A DNA stretch of 64,000 nucleotides from Malacoraja senta (Eukaryota): assembly GCA_038087875.1 (NCBI GenBank), contig CM075988.1, positions 21,392,001 through 21,456,000 on the forward strand. The letters are read 5' to 3'. Position 1 is the first letter of the stretch, and every line of letters starts with the position of its first letter. Shown here in pieces: positions 2,954 to 57,693 of the stretch. A program made the translations under genes and the position numbers. Below the pieces are notes generated by a model that was not told where the DNA came from, searched no databases, and saw only the letters and a program-made list of their open reading frames with translations.

Positions 2954-3177
2954 TCTTGTCTCTTGTCATAACCGGGGCCACAGTTTAAGAATAAGGAGTA
3001 AGCCATTTAGAACGGAGACGAGGAAACACTTTTTCTCACAGAGAGTTGTGAGTCGGTGGAATTCTCTGCCTCAGAGGGCGGTGGAGGCCGGTTCTCTGGA
3101 TACTTTCAAGAGAGAGTTAGATAGAGCTCTTAAAGATAGCGGAGTCAGGGGATATGGGGAGAAGGCAGGAACGGGGA

Positions 3178-6100
3178 ACGGGAGATCTGCAAAGGCTACT
3201 GGGGAGACTTTAAACTAGAATGGTTGGGGGGAGGGACTCAAATAGAGAATGCTATTAGACAGTGTGTGAGGCAGGAGGCAGAGAAGGAAAGCACTCAGAC
3301 CCAACATGTAGGGGGGAAAGAAGAAAACAATAATAAACAGAGAATAAGAGGTGGTGGGGTTCTTAAATGGGTGAGCAGAGAAACAGAGGGGTGCAAAATG
3401 CGGGCGGAAGCAATAGGTAGCAAGGTGAAAAGTAAAAGTGGCAGGCAGACAAATCCAGGGCAAAAATCAAAAAGAGCCACGTTCCAACATAATTGTATAA
3501 GGGGTAAGAGCGTTGTAAAAACAAGCCTGAAGGCTTTGTGTATCAATGCAAGGAGCATTCGTAATAAGGTCGATGAGTTGAACGTGCAGATAGCAATTAA
3601 TGATTATGATATAGTTGGGATCACGGAGACATGGCTCCAGGGTGACCAAGGCTGGGAGCTGAACATCCAGGGATATTCAATATTCAGGAGGGATAGAGAG
3701 AAAGGAAAAGGAGGTGGGGTAGCGTTGCTGGTTAGAGAGGAGATTAACGCAGTGGAAAGGAAGGGCATTAGCTTGGAGGATGTGGAATCGGTATGGGTAG
3801 AGCTACGAAATACTAAGGGGTAGAAAACGCTGGTGGGTGTTGTGTACATGCCACCTAGCAGTAGTAGTGAAGTTGGGGATGGCATCAAACAGGAAATTAG
3901 AAATGCGTGCAACAAAGGCAAAACAGTTATAATGGGTGACTTCAATCTACATATAGATTGGGTGAATCAAATTGGCAGGGGTGCTGAGGAAGAGGATTTC
4001 TTGGAATGTATGAGGGATAGTTATCTAAACCAACATGTAGAGGAACCAACGAGAGAGCAGGCTATTCTAGACTGGGTATTGAGTAATGAGGAAGGGTTAG
4101 TTAGCAGACTTGTTGTGCGTGCCCCCTTGGGCAAGAGTGACCATAATATGGTTGAGTTCTTCATTAGGATGGAGAGTGACATTGTTAATTCAGAAACAAC
4201 GGTTCTGAACTTAAAGAAAGGTAACTTTGAGGATATGAGACGTGAATTGGCCAAGATTGACTGGCAATTAGTTCTAAAAGGGTTGACGGTGGATATGCAA
4301 TGGAAGGCATTTAAAGACTGCATGGATGAACTACAAAAAATGTTCATCCCAGTTTGGCAAAAGAATAAATCAGGGAAGGTAGTGCATCCGTGGATAACAA
4401 GGGAAATCAGGGATAGTATCAAAGCAAAAGATGTTGCGTACAAATTAGCCAGAAAAAGTAGCATACCAGAGGACTGGGAGAAATTCAGAGACAAGCAGAG
4501 GAGGACAAAGGGCTTAATTAGGAAAGGGAAAATAGATTATGAAAGGAAACTGGCAGGGAACATAAAAACTGACTGCAAAAGTTTTTATAGATATGTGAAG
4601 AGAAAGAGATTAGTTAAAACAAATGTAGGTCCCTTGCAGTCAGAAACAGGTGAATTGATCATGGGGAACAAGGATATGGCGGACCAATTGAATAACTACT
4701 TTGGTTCCGTCTTCACTAAGGAAGACATAAATAATCTGCCGGAAATAGCAGGGGGCCGCGGGTCAAAGGAGATGGAGGAACTGAGTGAAATCCAGGTTAG
4801 TCGGGAAGTGGTGTTGGGTAAATTGAATGGATTAAAGGCCGATAAATCACCAGGGCCAGATAGGCTGCATACCAGAGTACTTAAGGAAGTAGCTCCAGAA
4901 ATAGTGGATGCATTAGTGATAATTTTTCAAAATTCTTTAGATTCTGGAGTAGTTCCTGAGGATTGGAGGGTAGCAAACGTAACCCCACTTTTTAAGAAGG
5001 GAGGGAGAGAGAAAACGGGGAATTACAGACCAGTTAGTCTAACATCGGTAGTGGGGAAACTGCTAGAGTCAGTTATTAGAGATGGGATAGCAGCACATTT
5101 GGAAAGTGGTGAAATCATTGGACAAAGTCAGCATGGATTTACGAAAGGTAAATCGTGTCTGACGAATCTTATAGAATTTTTCGAGGATGTAACTAGTAGA
5201 GTGGATAGGGGAGAACCAGTGGATGTGTTGTATCTGGACTTTCAGAAGGCTTTCGACAAGGTACCACATAAGAGATTAGGATACAAGCTTAAATCACACG
5301 GTATTGGGGGTTCAGTATTGATGTGGATAGAGAACTGGCTGGCAAACAGGAAGCAAAGAGTAGGAGTAAACGGGTCCTTTTCACAATGGCAGGCAGTGAC
5401 TAGTGGGGTACCGCAAGGCTCAGTGCTGGGACCCCAGCTATTTACAATTTATATTAATGAACTGGACGAGGGAATTGAAAGCAACATCTCCAAGTTTGCG
5501 GATGACACTAAGCTGGGGGGCAGTGTTAGCTGTGAGGAGGATGCTAGGAGACTGCAAGGTGACTTGGATAGGCTGGGGGAGTGGGCAAATGTTTGGCAGA
5601 TGCAGTATAATGTGGATAAATGTGAGGTTATCCACTTTGGTGGCAAAAACGGGAAGGCAGACTATTATCTAAATGGTGGCCGATTAGGAAATGGGGAGGT
5701 GCAGCGAGACCTGGGTGTCATGGTACACCAGTCATTGAAAGTAGGCTTGCAGGTGCAGCAGGCAGTGAAGAAAGCGAATGGTATGTTGGCCTTCATAGCA
5801 AGAGGATTTGAGTATAGGAGCAGGGAGGTTCTACTGCAGTTGTACAGGGTCTTGGTGAGACCACACCTGGAGTATTGCGTACAGTTTTGGTCTCCAAATC
5901 TGAGGAAGGACATTATAGCCATAGAGGGAGTGCAGAGAAGGTTCACCAGACTGATTCCTGGGATGTCAGGACTTTCATATGAAGAAAGATTGGATAGACT
6001 TGGCTTATACTCGCTAGAATTTAGGAGATTGAGAGGGGATCTTATAGAAACGTACAAAATTCTTATGGGGTTGGACAGGCTAGATGCAGGAAGATTGTTC

Positions 6101-6433
6101 CCGATGTTGGGGAAGTCCAGGACAAGGGGTCACAGCTTAAGGATAAGGGGGAAATCCTTTAAGACCGAGATGAGGAAAAACTTTTTCACACAGAGAGTGG
6201 TGAATCTCTGGAACTCTCTGCCACAGAGGGTAGTTGACGCCAGTTCATTGGCTATATTTAAGAGGGAGTTTGATGTGGCCCTTGTGGCTAAAGGGATCAG
6301 GGGGTATGGAGAGAAGGCAGGTACGGGATACTGAGTTGGATGATCAGCCATGATCATATTGAATGGCGGTGCAGGCTCGAAGGGCCGAATGGCCTACTCC
6401 TGCACCTATTTTCTATGTATCTATGTATCTATG
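3178..6433 (+). mobile_element. 5'-truncated CR1 LINE (end of ORF1, full ORF2, 3'UTR), nested in another CR1 3' fragment
   Basis: ORF1-like end GRSAKATGETLN* at 3218, ORF2, then a (CTATGTAT)n tail. The host fragment is split as ...GGAACGGGG | TACTGATTGGGG (2971-3177 and 6434-6528). Confidence 0.92.
3224..6334 (+). pseudogene. CR1 ORF2: APE endonuclease + reverse transcriptase, one premature stop (TAG 3821-3823)
   Basis: ORFs 3224-3823 and 3833-6334 are in the same frame. APE motifs NARSI, GITETW, MGDFN, SDH; RT motifs NYRPVSLTS, LDFQKAFDKV, GVPQGSVLGP, FADD. Confidence 0.93.
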
Positions 6434-6950
6434 TACTGATTGGGGATGATCAGCCATGATCACATTGAATGGCGGTGCTGGCTCGAAGGGCCAAATGGCC
6501 TACTCCTGCACCTATTGTCTATTGTCTACTTGTAGTCAGGATTGAACCCGGGTCTCTGGCGCTGTGAGGCAGCAACTCTCCCGCTGTGTCACTGTGTTAG
6601 CAAAATGGTAGCAAACTTGAGTAAACCTATTAAACTTCAGCATATGTGGACGGGGAGTTTTCATCAGTCATTTATGCTGCAAAACTTAGATCTTCAGGGG
6701 AGCCCCAGTATATTCAGTTTCTAACAGAAATTAATTCACTCCAGAACCTCAGAACTGTGGAAATGATCTTCACATTCCAATCTTCCATTCCTTCTACAAA
6801 CAACAAGGCTTTGGCATTGATGCGTGGTATTATTTATAAGTTATTTTCTTATTTAGTTTGGCTAAGTTGCAGCCGCTGAATTTCTGGGTTGCTGTGATGT
6901 GGAATAACTGTGCTGTCAAGGTGGGATAAGCACAATCTGGTGCCGTCTCT

Positions 6951-24364: not shown

Positions 24365-25205
24365 TTCTCTGGATGCTTCCAAGAGAGAGCTAGATAGGGC
24401 TCTTAAAGATAGCGGAGTTAGGGGATATGGGTAGAAGGCAGGAACGGGGTACTGATTTGGGATGATCAGCCATGATCACACTGCATGACGGTGCTGGCTC
24501 GAAGGGCCGAATGTCCTACTCCTGCACCTATTGTCTATTGCCTAAACTGAAGAAAGACACAAAAAGCTGGAGTAACTCAGCGGGACAGGCAGTATCTCTC
24601 TCACCCCTCAGGCATCCCCTCATTAAACTCTCTGAAGCACTGGAAGGTATTAAAATACTTCCAAGCAGTAAGGAACACACCAAAAGCATCGACAAGAAGC
24701 CCAACAGTGAACGGTTAACAACTGTGGGTACTAGACAAAAATGCTGGAGAAACTCAGCGGGTGAGGCGGCATCTAGATGCTGCCTCACCCGCTGAGCTTC
24801 TCCAGCGTTTTTGTCTACCTTTGATTTTTCCAGCATCTGCAGTTCTTTCGTAAACATAACGGTTGACAACTGTGGGTGTTCCACCCTGAGGCACATTGCT
24901 TTCACAAGCATCGTCATTGGTATTTTACTCGTTTATATTTAGTCTGAGGCACAGATGACATTAATTTGTGTGGCTGCAAGAATGCGTATCATGCTCGTGT
25001 GCACCGAGTCACGGGGTTGTACAGCACGGGAACGTGGCCTCTTTTTGTTTTTTAATCAAAAAATAATGTATTTAATTACGACCACGATACATGAACAAAA
25101 CCGTGGTGACGCACCCGACACCATAGTACGAAATCACCAACTTATCCAGGCACTACATTTTCAGGCAACTGTGTTACAATCCTTACTAAGTCACTACTAT
25201 ACAAC

Positions 25206-25259
25206 GGGGTGGGAGATTGCAACCTTCACGTGGTCCGCCCTGCTTCGACAAATGCAATC
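25206..25259 (+). ncRNA. Minimal HDV/CPEB3-like self-cleaving ribozyme (predicted)
   Basis: P1 GGGGUGG/CCGCCCU (G1-U wobble), P2 GAUUGCA/UGCAAUC, P3 ACC/GGU, L3 UUCACGU, J1/4 G, P4 reduced to a UUCG loop, J4/2 CAAA with the catalytic-position C at 25249. Confidence 0.8.
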
Positions 25260-25319
25260 AAACTGGCGTGCACAATCAAATACGATCAAATAGAACAACT
25301 TTTCCTACGCAAGAAGAAT
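25206..25319 (+). mobile_element. Tiny ribozyme-headed retroposon, copy A
   Basis: TSD ACTACTATACAAC (25193-25205, 25320-25332); (AAG)n tail; homologous to 44962-45101. Confidence 0.85.
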
Positions 25320-26262
25320 ACTACTATACAACGGCGTTCCTCTCTAACACCACCCGGGCGCGGACGTCACCCCGGAAAAGGGGCAATCATCTGGCTCGGG
25401 CAAAGCCCTCTTCTGCCTGGCGCAGTGACTCGCGGATGGCCAGCTTGGCCAGGCCTTGGAGCAACCCAACCAGGCCATCTTCGGCCCTGCCCACTCCCTG
25501 GATCCCGTCACCAGTCCTCCGGTCGCTGACAGCAGAGCCGCTCCTCCCCCTACGGCCCCTAGGTGGAGTGGCGGTGCGCCCAGGCACGGGCCCTTTGTCC
25601 CCCCCGGCCCCCCCGTCCCCCCCGCCCCCCCCGGCCCTTTCTGCCCGTTAAACCGATCCCATTTCAACTTTAGAGATAGGATTGCGATACAGTTGCCTGG
25701 GATCGCTCCTGACTGCGGGAGCTGTCTGTACGGAGTTTGTACGTTCTCCCCGTAACCGCGTGTGTTTTCTCCGGTTTATACGGTTTCCGCACTCTAAAGA
25801 CGTGCGGGTTTGTAGTAAATTGTCCCTCGTGTGTGGGATAAAACCAGTGAACGGGTGATTTTTGTCAGCGTGGACTTGCTGGGCAGAAAGGCCTGTTTCC
25901 ACGCTGTATATCTAAATTTTTTTTTAAACAAATCTGCAATTTTCTGAAATGCTGGAGGTTGTGGGGAGACCTAACAGAAGTGTGTAAAGTTATGAGAGTC
26001 ACAGATAGGGTGTTCAGACAGATTATTTATCCCAGGATGGAAAAATCAAATACTAGATGGCATAGGTTTAAGGTGAGAGGGGCACAGTTTAAAAGGTATA
26101 TGCAGGGGCATCTTTATACAAAGGGTGGTGGGTGCCTGCAACATGCTCCCAGGGGTGGTGGGTGAGGCAGATATGATAGTGGTGTTTAAGGGTCTTTTGG
26201 ATAGGCACGTGGATATTCGGGGAATAGAGGAATTATTGATTTTGTGTAGGCAGATGAGTTGG

Positions 26263-44593: not shown

Positions 44594-44961
44594 TCATATT
44601 CAGGGACAGTTTCTTCCCGGCTGTTATCAGGCAACTGAACCATCCTCTCACCAGCTGGAGTGCGGTCCTGACCCTCCCATCTACCTCCAGCAGAGGTGAC
44701 AAAGCATGACTACAATCCAGCCATCCAAAGTGTACAGATACAAGATAGACACAAAAACGCTGGAATAATTCAGCAGGACAGGCAGCATCTCTGGGGAGAA
44801 GGGTCGACCCGAAACGTCACCCATTCCTTCTCCCCAGAGATGCTGCCTGTCTCACTGAGTTACTCCAGCGTTTTGTGTCTATCTTCAGTGTAAACCAGCA
44901 TCTGCAGTTCCTTCCTGCGGACACATGATAACGTGAATAATGTTTGGTGCAAGATAAAGTC

Positions 44962-45101
44962 TTCTTCTTCTTGCGTACGGCGTGCACAGCCTAAAGTTGT
45001 CGGGCAACTTGTTCTATTTGATCTTATTTGATTGTGCACGCCAGGTTGATTGCATTCGTCAAAACAGGGTGGACCACGTGAAGGTTGCGATCTCCCACCC
45101 C
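44962..45101 (-). mobile_element. Tiny ribozyme-headed retroposon, copy B
   Basis: TSD AAGATAAAGTC (44951-44961, 45102-45112); (AAG)n tail; 10-bp 3' stem GGCGTGCACA/TGTGCACGCC. Confidence 0.85.
45048..45101 (-). ncRNA. Minimal HDV/CPEB3-like ribozyme (predicted)
   Basis: Minus strand GGGGUGG-GA-GAUCGCA-ACC-UUCACGU-GGU-CCACCCU-GU-UUUGA-CGAA-UGCAAUC; one C.A mismatch in P2. Confidence 0.78.
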
Positions 45102-45589
45102 AAGATAAAGTCCAGTAAAGTCTGATTAAAGAATAGCTCAAAGGTTCCAATGAGGTAGATGGGAAGTCTGAACCGCACTCTAGCTGATGAGGGAGCCTTG
45201 CAGTTGCCTGATAACAGCTGGGAAGAAACTGTCCCTGAATCTGGAGATGTGCGTTTTCAAACTTCTGTACCTCTTGCCTGATGGGAGTGGGGAGAAGAGG
45301 AGTGAGCGGGGTGAGACTGGTCCGTGATTATGCTGGCAGCCTTGCCGAGGCAGCGTGAAGTGTAGATGGAATCTGAAATTGTTTGCTCCACTGACAAACA
45401 CAAGTGGAATGAAATATCATCTCTCGAATAAATCACGTGGGCAGTGGCCTATTCACAGACTACAACTAAAACATTTAACCGGCGTGTGCTATCATTGCTG
45501 CTTAATGAAAGAGGGTCAATGTTCTGATGCTTGTTGAGACAGTGGATGCCAATTGTATTATATCTTTTATTTTCTGATTGGCTTTAATG

Positions 45590-56835: not shown

Positions 56836-57693
56836 TCTCTCTCCCCATCCCCCCACTCACAACAAAGGCAGAGTCCCCCTAGTCCTCACCTTTCACCCCA
56901 CCAGCCGTCACATACAACAAGTGATCCTCCGTCAGTTTCGCCACCTCCAACGTGACCCCACCACTCGCCACATCTTCCCATCTCCCCCTATGTCTGCCTT
57001 CCGCAAAGACCGCTCCCTCCGTAACTCCCTTGTCAATTCTTCCCTTCCCTCCCATACCACCCCTCCCCTGGTACTTTCCCTTGCAACCGCAAGAGATGCA
57101 ACACTTGTCCCTTCACTTCCCCCTTCCACTCCATTCAAGGACCCAAGCAGTCGTTCCAGGTGCGACAGAGGTTCACCTGCATCTCCTCCAACCTCATCTA
57201 TTGCATTCGCTGCTCTAGATGCCAGCTGATCTACATCGGTGAGACCAAGCGGAGGCTTGGCGATCGTTTCGCCGAACACCTCCGGTCGGTCCGCAATAAC
57301 CAACCTGAACTCCCGGTGGCTCAGCACTTCAACTCCCCCTCCCATTCCGTATCTGACCTCTCTGTCCTGGGTCTCCTCCATGGCCACAGCGAGCAACACC
57401 GTAAATTGGAGGAAATGCACCTCATATTCCGCTTGGGCAGTCTACATCCTGGTGGCCTGAACGTTGAATTCTCCAATTCTGCTAGCCCTGGCTGTCCCCT
57501 CCCCTTCATCAGCCCTCTGGTTGTCTCCTCCCCTCCCCAGCCCTCGGGCTCCTCCTCCGCCTTTTCCTTTTTTCCTCTCTTCTCCCCACCCCCTATCAGT
57601 CTGAAGAAGGGTTTCGGCCCGAAACGTTACCTATTTCCTTCGCTCCATAGATGCTGCTGCACCCGCTGAGTTTCTCCAGCATTTTTGTGTACC
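56836..57693 (+). mobile_element. Penelope-like element 3' portion (linker + GIY-YIG + terminal repeat)
   Basis: RVPLVLTFHP..ILRQFRHLQRDPTTRHIF..RSLRNSLV..CNTCP..RQRFTCISSNLIYCIRC..YIGETKRRLGDRFAEH; hammerhead-like core at 57601-57630. Confidence 0.9.

What the first reader, a model, noticed from the sequence alone, without database searches (positions are those of the whole stretch)
44962..45101. Second, longer copy of the ribozyme-headed retroposon supports the fold and adds a 3' stem
Seen: an independent insertion (different TSD, opposite strand) again starting at GGGGUGG. P1 has U-A where copy A has U-G, J1/4 is GU, J4/2 is CGAA, and L3 and P3 are identical. The 3' half has a 10-bp stem GGCGUGCACA/UGUGCACGCC just before UACGC(AAG)n; copy A lacks its 3' arm. 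Inference: a two-module RNA of 5' ribozyme plus 3' RT-recognition structure in only 140 nt.
Basis: partly seen in the sequence, partly recalled or inferred. Interest (0 to 1): 0.8.

Follow-up and report, generated by a model that had tools for sequence, protein, structure and literature searches.

The report
Ribozyme-headed 140-base RTE-dependent retroposon
A 140-base parasitic jumping element, present in thousands of copies, begins with a stripped-down hepatitis-delta/CPEB3-type self-cutting RNA fold and ends with the last 30 bases of an RTE-type LINE, so it most likely cuts itself out of host transcripts and borrows that LINE's copying enzyme.

Summary
Window 44961-45101 (minus strand) is a 141-nt insertion flanked by a perfect 10-bp target-site duplication. 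It starts at GGGGTGG and ends in (AAG)4.

It belongs to a family with about 5,000 exact-18-mer hits in the 1.94-Gb genome. In an unbiased sample of 40 places, 32 begin at consensus position 1-3.

The first 54 nt have the HDV/CPEB3 double-pseudoknot layout but no P4. The same genome holds full-size CPEB3-type ribozymes, up to 64 bits on Rfam RF00622, exactly at the 5' ends of a young 3.1-kb RTE-like LINE. It also holds a second P4-less short family. Across these families P1, P2 and P3 co-vary, while L3, J1/4 and the catalytic C stay fixed.

The partner LINE was found by its 3' end. This RTE-like "LINE-P" shares the last 30 nt, including its stop codon, plus (AAG)n.

The 10-bp stem is real (z = -4). 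However, its 5' arm is specific to the short element and the LINE's 3' end shows no such fold, so a role in RT recognition is unsupported.

Self-cleavage is untested, and RNA reads showed no pile-up of starts at G1. Verdict: a new variant of a known kind.

The parts
45102..45111 (.). Target-site duplication, the copy next to the element's 5' end (AAGATAAAGT on the + strand)
   Evidence: identical to 44951-44960
45048..45101 (-). P4-less HDV/CPEB3-type ribozyme fold, element positions 1-54. P1 is 1-7/30-36, P2 is 10-16/48-54, P3 is 17-19/27-29, L3 is 20-26 (UUCACGU), J1/4 is 37-38 (GU), the linker is 39-43, and J4/2 is 44-47 (CGAA, putative catalytic C44). The predicted cleavage site lies 5' of G1, between 45102 and 45101.
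45086..45092 (-). P2 5' strand. In copy B position 13 is C, giving a C.A mismatch; the family consensus has T and a perfect 7-bp P2.
44979..45042 (-). 3' domain, element positions 60-123: an outer 10-11-bp stem (60-69 with 114-123) enclosing a 7-bp hairpin (92-98 with 102-108)
   Evidence: MFE -22.3 kcal/mol (z -2.96) for copy B and -23.9 kcal/mol (z -3.99) for a consensus-like copy
44973..45002 (-). 30 nt (element positions 100-129) shared with the 3' end of the RTE-like LINE-P. They comprise the last codons, the TAG stop and the 18-nt 3' UTR of the LINE.
44961..44972 (-). (AAG)4 microsatellite tail
   Evidence: The same tail repeat occurs on LINE-P, LINE i and family V.
44951..44960 (.). Target-site duplication, the copy next to the tail
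25206..25319 (+). Copy A of the same family. Its head is intact (perfect P2, U.G in P1, J4/2 CAAA). Consensus positions 102-125 are deleted. A 13-nt duplication lies at 25193-25205 and 25320-25332.

Best explanation
The element, here called SINE-A, is a non-autonomous retroposon that depends on an RTE-type LINE. It has no tRNA-like or other recognisable Pol III head. Copies lying inside transcribed DNA are co-transcribed with their surroundings. The first 54 nt then fold into a minimal (P4-less) CPEB3-type HDV-like ribozyme that cleaves just 5' of G1, which gives the RNA its exact 5' end. The 3'-terminal 30 nt plus (AAG)n are copied from the end of the RTE-like LINE-P and are the likely handle by which that LINE's endonuclease-RT primes reverse transcription at a nicked target, producing 8-15-bp duplications. 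Shown here: the family, its duplications, its uniform 5' end, the fold with covariation, and the shared LINE 3' end. Inferred: self-cleavage, co-transcription, and which LINE protein does the copying. The long 3' stem pairs element-specific sequence with the LINE-derived tail. Its role is open; it may stabilise the RNA or present or mask the tail.
For: Family and ends. One search scored 40 of 1,321 first-look candidates, and all 40 cover query positions 1-138 or more at 95-100% identity; 31 of 31 copies start at GGGGTGG; 5,025 exact hits for a ribozyme 18-mer and 5,801 for a 3' 18-mer, with 0 for the reversed controls. Searches took the first 40 places of the 3' 18-mer as an unbiased sample. 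Of these, 32 start at consensus position 1-3, 4 are truncated or interrupted copies and 4 are LINE-P ends. A script found an exact duplication of 7 nt or more in 21 of the 32.

Fold; the family consensus has P1 7/7, P2 7/7 and P3 3/3 paired. L3, J1/4 and J4/2 equal those of the Rfam CPEB3 consensus printed. RF00622 gave 39 of 60 rows over its cut-off, with a best score of 64.2 bits; these hits sit exactly at the 5' ends of a 3.14-kb LINE. One search, on 23 sequences from 6 families, for P1+P3+P1.1: 88.9% of cells are paired against 76.4 +/- 1.4 in shuffles (0 of 500 reach it) and 38-52% when partners are slid. P2 is 7/7 in all six family consensi, with six different sequences., comparing the two P4-less families: 95.5% paired against 73.5 +/- 1.9, and 10 of 18 pairs change on both sides. 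One search, on 32 unbiased copies: variants shared by 3 or more copies number 0 of 384 cells in L3, J1/4, C44, A46 and A47, and 16 of 1,088 in helices. By position, (all 63 copies) lists only G32A, which preserves the pair, and T5G, probably an alignment effect, as shared variants in helices. By contrast, shared variants are 31 of 256 in J1/2, the linker and G45, and 71 of 960 in the spacer and loops. Private variants run at 2.3-2.7% in all ribozyme classes.

Precedent. Passages of 10.1101/2023.06.13.544163 say minimal HDV-like ribozymes lack P4 and cleave in vitro.

Partner. Searches show 30 shared nt plus (AAG)n. Searches show the upstream sequence is an RT ORF.
Against: No cleavage assay exists. 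No Rfam family matches the element itself. P4 is absent. In poly(A) RNA reads of a related organism (run X24), 210 reads cross the element's 5' boundary into varied flanks, and no pile-up of molecule starts at G1 was reported. The library would not capture a short non-adenylated RNA and was read without regard to strand, so this is weak evidence. Copy B itself has a P2 mismatch and is probably a dead copy. The LINE-P 5' end was not recovered. No intact LINE-P ORF appeared among the 150 matches scored or the 150; the longest open frames were 406 and 681 aa. Copy A and a few other copies lack much of the LINE-derived tail yet have duplications.
Confidence: 0.6

Rival explanations
1. The head is only a relic of a LINE 5' end, and losing P4 killed the ribozyme. 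The uniform 5' end then comes from transcription starting at G1 from an internal promoter. The 77-nt head of L1Tc/NARTc, which is both promoter and ribozyme, is a precedent.
For: No Rfam hit for the element. No excess of RNA starts at G1. The abstract of PMC3383444 describes a dual promoter/ribozyme head.
Against: Two P4-less families keep all helices through 10 double changes. Subfamily-level changes avoid the core. P4-less HDV-like ribozymes are active in vitro (passages of 10.1101/2023.06.13.544163). No tRNA-like head was found, and no promoter was tested.
Confidence: 0.2
2. One reading: the 10-bp stem is the structure that the LINE reverse transcriptase recognises.
For: The stem is significantly stable (z -3.99, 0 of 200 shuffles fold as well) and sits next to the tail.
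Against: Only the 3' arm is shared with LINE-P. The last 102 nt of LINE-P fold no better than shuffles (z +0.65). Shared subfamily variants in the 5' arm include the uncompensated G61A in 8 of 63 copies. The 5' arm also has the highest private-variant rate, 7.8%.
Confidence: 0.15
3. The element is, or also is, mobilised by the younger RTE-like LINE i rather than LINE-P, through the common (AAG)n tail and a short terminal motif.
For: LINE i copies are 97-98% identical, and one has an open 940-aa ORF with APE and RT domains. It has the same tail repeat and the same duplication length, with duplications seen in 5 of 6 copies. It carries the same class of ribozyme head.
Against: Beyond about 12 terminal nt there is no 3' similarity to the element, whereas LINE-P shares 30 nt. 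LINE-P 3' ends are 93-95% identical to one another and SINE-A copies 95-96%, which suggests a similar age.
Confidence: 0.2
4. The HDV-like fold is a chance resemblance in an ordinary repeat.
For: Short helices are easy to find, and Rfam finds nothing in the element.
Against: All 13 unpaired core letters are identical to the CPEB3 consensus in the same register. Homologous full-size ribozymes score up to 64 bits in the same genome. Covariation is seen, and the slid controls pair only 34-52% of cells.
Confidence: 0.02

Closest known systems
HDV-like ribozymes at the 5' ends of non-LTR retrotransposons (RTE, R2, R4, Baggins, L1Tc). I saw passages of PMC3774820 and PMC6765202; the primary paper (Ruminski et al. 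2011) is not held and is recalled.
   Same: The ribozyme sits at the exact 5' junction, so cleavage releases the element from a co-transcript. The elements are RTE-type LINEs with microsatellite tails. LINE i here is a plain example.
   Different: Here the core is of the CPEB3 sequence type. In the 140-nt element the ribozyme has no P4, and the carrier is a non-coding short element.
Non-autonomous elements that keep a LINE's ribozyme head: NARTc and SIDER of trypanosomatids (abstracts of PMC3383444 and PMC4035085) and R2 SIDEs (abstract of PMC3414825)
   Same: A short element with a 5' HDV-like ribozyme plus the LINE's 3' recognition end.
   Different: Those elements are internal-deletion copies of a known LINE with the same head. 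Here the helices of the head differ from every LINE head I recovered, and the partner's 5' end is unknown, so an internal-deletion origin is unproven. Insertions here are dispersed and not site-specific.
Mammalian CPEB3 ribozyme (Rfam RF00622)
   Same: L3 UUCACGU, J1/4 GU, J4/2 CGAA, the G1.U36 wobble and the same numbering up to position 38. The LINE heads score 59.7 bits and up to 64.2.
   Different: The CPEB3 ribozyme is a single-copy intronic ribozyme, and passages of PMC8233481 say it has not been found outside mammals. Here it is a multi-copy retrotransposon head. The 140-nt element lacks P4 and does not reach the model's threshold.
Minimal HDV-like (drz-Mtgn) and theta ribozymes of gut phages (passages of 10.1101/2023.06.13.544163)
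   Same: An HDV-like double pseudoknot without P4. These ribozymes are shown to cleave in vitro.
   Different: Those were reported from phage genomes next to tRNAs. This one is a eukaryotic retroposon head derived from a full-size CPEB3-type ribozyme lineage.
Ribozyme-bearing SINE-like elements of schistosomes: the hammerhead of Sm-alpha (passages of PMC6765202) and twister variants (abstract of PMC8501958)
   Same: A short non-autonomous retroposon that uses a self-cleaving ribozyme to process its RNA.
   Different: A different ribozyme class. Sm-alpha is Pol III-transcribed and tandem.

Membership tests
HDV-like self-cleaving ribozymes (nested double pseudoknot) | A 6-7-bp P1 that starts at the cleavage-site G, with a G.U wobble at its base | tested here: met
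   7 of 7 paired in the consensus, including G1.U36; positions 5, 6 and 7 change on both sides between families.
HDV-like self-cleaving ribozymes (nested double pseudoknot) | P2 pseudoknot between the segment after P1 and the 3' end | tested here: met
   7 of 7 in all six family consensi; 5 of 7 pairs change on both sides between the two P4-less families. Copy B has one mismatch.
HDV-like self-cleaving ribozymes (nested double pseudoknot) | A 3-bp P3 closing L3, and P1.1 between L3 and J1/4 | tested here: met
   P3 is 3 of 3 paired (ACC/GGU, against GCG/CGC in the other families). C22-G37 is invariant in 23 of 23 and 16 of 16 sequences, so it is uninformative for covariation.
HDV-like self-cleaving ribozymes (nested double pseudoknot) | Catalytic cytosine at the start of J4/2 | tested here: met
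   C44 is present; no shared variant at C44, A46 or A47 in 32 unbiased copies, while the neighbouring G45 varies freely.
HDV-like self-cleaving ribozymes (nested double pseudoknot) | P4 helix | tested here: not met
   only 5 nt lie between J1/4 and J4/2. P4 is dispensable in the described minimal variants (passages of 10.1101/2023.06.13.544163), so this places the element among the minimal forms rather than outside the class.
HDV-like self-cleaving ribozymes (nested double pseudoknot) | Site-specific self-cleavage | not testable with these tools
The RNA reads gave no start pile-up and are not decisive.
Rfam RF00622 CPEB3_ribozyme | Score at or above the 35-bit gathering threshold | tested here: not met
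   The element itself gave no hit (tested on L003). LINE i scored 59.7 bits, family II 59.7 and the P4-less family V 36.3.
LINE-dependent non-autonomous retroposon (SINE-LINE pair, RTE type) | 3' end shared with an autonomous LINE | tested here: met
   consensus positions 100-129 plus (AAG)n are shared with LINE-P; the sequence upstream in the LINE is an RT ORF.
LINE-dependent non-autonomous retroposon (SINE-LINE pair, RTE type) | Target-site duplications, dispersed copies and some 5'-truncated copies | tested here: met
Classical SINE | A Pol III head derived from tRNA, 7SL or 5S | tested here: not met
   One search found no tRNA. Searches found no Rfam family. It is therefore not a classical SINE.
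Internally deleted LINE derivative (SIDE/NARTc type) | The 5' end is identical to the partner LINE's 5' end | tested here: inconclusive
   All five LINE-P copies fetched over any length are 5'-truncated (L134, L135, L137, L138, L139). One locus (L139) has an inverted element head abutting a truncated LINE-P.

The most novel reading that the evidence does not exclude
CPEB3-type ribozymes are ancestrally the 5' processing module of RTE-family retrotransposons and their short parasites. The single-copy ribozyme in the mammalian CPEB3 intron would then be an exapted head of such an element. This genome would supply the outgroups that the literature says are missing. The two P4-less heads would be the first natural minimal HDV-like ribozymes working in a eukaryotic mobile element.
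Probability: 0.35. Interest if true: 0.8.

Novelty: new variant of a known kind. Interest (0 to 1): 0.62.

Why it matters
HDV-like ribozymes at LINE 5' ends, and short elements that reuse them, are known, so the principle is not new. Three points go further.

1. The ribozymes here are close sequence relatives of the mammalian CPEB3 ribozyme. [quoted passage not shown] This genome has at least 39 hits above the Rfam threshold, at retrotransposon starts. That offers outgroups and a concrete hypothesis for the origin of the CPEB3 ribozyme.

2. Two abundant short families carry a 54-nt P4-less version whose helices have co-varied. This suggests a working natural minimal ribozyme in a eukaryote and a compact module for RNA 5'-end definition.

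3. At 140 nt, this is one of the smallest two-module retroposons (ribozyme plus LINE tail). That makes it a convenient system for asking what an RTE-type RT needs in a template.

The taxon of the genome is not disclosed to me, so I did not establish that it lies outside mammals.

Tried and rejected
Rfam. The window at gathering thresholds, the element at E up to 10 and a consensus-like copy gave nothing for the element. ARAGORN found no tRNA.

Boundary patterns. I searched for a LINE that shares the element's 3' part or its head using patterns with "not this base" letters at assumed boundaries. They returned 1, 2, 14 and 5 hits. All but one (L046) of the 17 hits I could look at were deletion, insertion or truncation variants of the element itself; the five hits were judged from their matched letters only. 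Each pattern had only about 24-42% power, and one failed because the LINE shares more than I had assumed. The partner was found instead by sampling the first 40 places of a 3' 18-mer.

LINE-P 5' end. Five copies fetched were all truncated. A candidate picked by spacing of the two 18-mers (C1:20849544) proved to be an element head followed by unrelated sequence. The flank of the inverted head in L139 is unique in the genome, so it does not reveal a LINE-P leader.

RNA evidence. Element-containing reads are plentiful in poly(A) RNA of a related organism, but they cross the 5' boundary into varied flanks and no start pile-up at G1 was reported. This is no verdict on cleavage. LINE i was not covered in that run. 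Two DNA runs of further organisms held no element reads.

Earlier findings of this scan: nothing on this genome or element.

Pfam on 43 other open frames of the window: no host gene, so no clue to the taxon.

MAFFT could not gap the P4-less heads against the full-size ones (A1). P2 was therefore counted by script and on the gap-free alignment A2.

Full report
1. THE OBSERVATION

On the minus strand, window 45101 to 44961 is a 141-nt insertion. It starts with GGGGTGG, ends with UACGC followed by (AAG)4, and lies between two identical 10-nt repeats (45102-45111 and 44951-44960).

A second copy sits on the plus strand at 25206-25319, with a different 13-nt duplication. The 28-mer that finds both copies has 0.00 expected chance matches.

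- U-A against U.G in P1.
- GU in J1/4 and CGAA in J4/2 of copy B.
- Identical L3 and P3.
- A C.A mismatch in P2 of copy B.
- A 10-bp stem at element positions 60-69 and 114-123.
- A deletion of about 24 nt in copy A that removes the 3' arm.

The 3' half of a consensus-like copy folds into this stem with an inner 7-bp hairpin at -23.9 kcal/mol, against -12.9 +/- 2.75 for 200 shuffles, none of which folds as well.

2. THE FAMILY

The window lies in a 1.94-Gb assembly. A search with the element scored 40 of 1,321 first-look candidates. All 40 are essentially full length at 95-100% identity. In the 30 loci returned, 31 of 31 copies start at the same G, and most show target-site duplications.

Exact-match counts over the whole genome are 5,025 for an 18-mer in the head and 5,801 for an 18-mer in the 3' part, against 0 for the reversed controls.

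To avoid selecting for full length, I fetched the first 40 places of the 3' 18-mer:
- 32 begin at consensus position 1-3.
- 4 are truncated or interrupted copies, starting at positions 6, 20, 89 and 98.
- 4 are not the element at all (see section 4).

A simple script found an exact duplication of at least 7 nt in 21 of the 32; the rest may have imperfect ones.

3. THE HEAD IS A P4-LESS CPEB3-TYPE HDV-LIKE FOLD

Rfam finds nothing in the element, and ARAGORN finds no tRNA.

Searching the genome with Rfam RF00622 (CPEB3 ribozyme, cut-off 35 bits) gave 39 of 60 rows over the cut-off, with a best score of 64.2 bits. These hits fall into several families.

- Family "LINE i" heads a 3.14-kb element. 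Its copies are 97-98% identical (6 fetched). One has an open 940-aa frame with APE-endonuclease and RT domains. All 6 copies have an (AAG)n tail, and 5 of 6 show 10-12-bp duplications. The architecture is RTE-like; that label rests on my recollection of RTE features. The ribozyme's G1 is the first base of the element.
- "Family V" is a second short element of about 205 nt, also with an (AAG)n tail and duplications. Its head, like that of our element, has only 5 nt where P4 should be. It still scores 35-44 bits.

The Rfam consensus printed shows L3 UUCACGU, J1/4 GU and J4/2 CGAA. The element has the same letters at the same positions.

Covariation:
- The consensus of each of six families has a perfect 7-bp P2, with six different sequences.
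- On 23 sequences, P1+P3+P1.1 pair in 88.9% of cells. Shuffles give 76.4 +/- 1.4 (0 of 500 reach the observed value), and slid partners give 38-52%.
- Between the two P4-less families, 95.5% of cells pair (shuffles 73.5 +/- 1.9), and 10 of 18 pairs differ on both sides. These are effectively two lineages, so this counts as ten compensated differences, not many independent events.

Variation within the element family, on 32 unbiased copies:
- Private variants are even across the ribozyme classes (2.3-2.7%), as expected for dead copies.
- Variants shared by three or more copies, which reflect changes in source copies, are absent from L3, J1/4, C44, A46 and A47 (0 of 384 cells).
- They are rare in helices (16 of 1,088). 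The per-position list for all 63 copies shows only the pair-preserving G32A and T5G, probably an alignment effect, in helices.
- They are common in J1/2, the linker and G45 (31 of 256) and in the spacer and loops (71 of 960).

This is the pattern expected if source copies needed the fold. P4-less HDV-like ribozymes are known to cleave in vitro (passages of 10.1101/2023.06.13.544163).

4. THE PARTNER LINE

Four of the 40 sampled places (L094, L100, L110, L133) carry the last roughly 30 nt of the element and (AAG)n, but are preceded by coding-like sequence. This is the 3' end of another RTE-like LINE, "LINE-P".

- Its ORF ends with a TAG that lies inside the shared segment, leaving an 18-nt 3' UTR.
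- Its RT is 34-42% identical to that of LINE i.
- A 196-nt piece of its 3' end had 482 first-look candidates. The 40 scored were 93-100% identical.

The element therefore shares consensus positions 100-129 plus the tail repeat with LINE-P. With LINE i it shares only about 12 terminal nt.

All five LINE-P copies fetched over any length were 5'-truncated. No intact ORF appeared among the 150 matches scored in each of two protein searches; the longest open frames were 406 and 681 aa.

5. THE 3' STEM

Only the 3' arm of the 10-bp stem and the 3' arm of the inner hairpin lie in the LINE-derived 30 nt. Both 5' arms are specific to the element.

The last 102 nt of LINE-P and the last 100 nt of LINE i fold no better than shuffles (z +0.65 and +0.38). 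Among subfamily variants in the 5' arm, G61A is uncompensated (8 of 63 copies) and C62T keeps a wobble.

The stem is therefore real, but nothing shows that the RT reads it. What is shared with the LINE is sequence, not structure.

6. RNA

A 6-kb locus holding a LINE i copy and an element copy (L073) was laid with reads.

- Poly(A) RNA reads of a related, coded organism cover the element at depth about 156/90.
- 210 reads run from the element's first base into varied flanks, and no excess of molecule starts at G1 was reported.
- This does not show cleavage. It does not exclude it either, because short non-adenylated RNA is not captured and antisense and decayed copies cannot cleave.
- Two DNA runs of other organisms held no element reads.

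7. COMPARISON WITH WHAT IS KNOWN, AND VERDICT

HDV-like ribozymes at the 5' junction of RTE, R2, R4 and L1Tc elements are established, as is the use of HDV-like or hammerhead ribozymes by non-autonomous elements (passages of PMC3774820 and PMC6765202; abstracts of PMC3383444, PMC4035085 and PMC3414825).

The new aspects are the CPEB3-type core in retrotransposons, the natural P4-less form in a eukaryotic element, and the very small two-module design. [quoted passage not shown] My literature searches for such a report found none. They cover only the held library, and one search was poorly framed.

I rate the finding a new variant of a known kind. The mechanism is well supported by comparison but unproven by experiment.

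Noticed in passing
L048-L073 (e.g. L071:12-3120): A young RTE-like LINE ("LINE i"), about 3.14 kb, with copies 97-98% identical and one open 940-aa APE+RT frame. Its first base is G1 of a full-size ribozyme that scores 52-64 bits on the Rfam model of the mammalian CPEB3 ribozyme.
   Followed up: partly
L074-L088, L093: A second short element ("family V", about 205 nt, (AAG)n tail, duplications) with its own P4-less head. The linker and J4/2 read UUCCA-CCAA where our element has UUCGA-CGAA, which looks like a tandem triplet. The element starts one base inside the canonical P1 register, and the base before it, within the duplication, is T in most copies.
   Followed up: partly
L139:1255-1480; also L059, L063, L065, L089, L090, L092: Head-to-head junctions: an inverted ribozyme head abuts a 5'-truncated RTE-like RT body on the other strand. 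L139 also has an 18-nt direct copy that forms a palindrome. This resembles twin-priming inversions, but I did not work it out.
   Followed up: partly
L052, L056, L060; L059, L061, L063, L089; L062, L065, L090, L092: Three further, older families of full-size CPEB3-type ribozymes (families II-IV) with different P4 lengths (29, 19 and 15 nt). Each is followed by a shared ACCAC motif and by no obvious ORF in the 1.5 kb seen.
   Followed up: no
window 44760-44890: Just beside the element lies a roughly 27-nt perfect inverted repeat within a larger repeat unit. Similar sequence recurs in the flanks of many fetched loci.
   Followed up: no
window 3140-6440: A CR1-like LINE (APE and RT domains) ending in an 8-nt tandem repeat tail. 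It is unrelated to the element's partner.
   Followed up: partly
window 57025-57669: An open frame with a weak GIY-YIG match (E = 2e-4, below Pfam's cut-off), possibly a Penelope-like element.
   Followed up: no
L140 (G000:C1:20849535-20849714): An element head (positions 1-55) continues into unrelated, coding-like sequence, and the element's 3' 18-mer lies 3.3 kb downstream. Most likely this copy is split by a nested insertion.
   Followed up: partly
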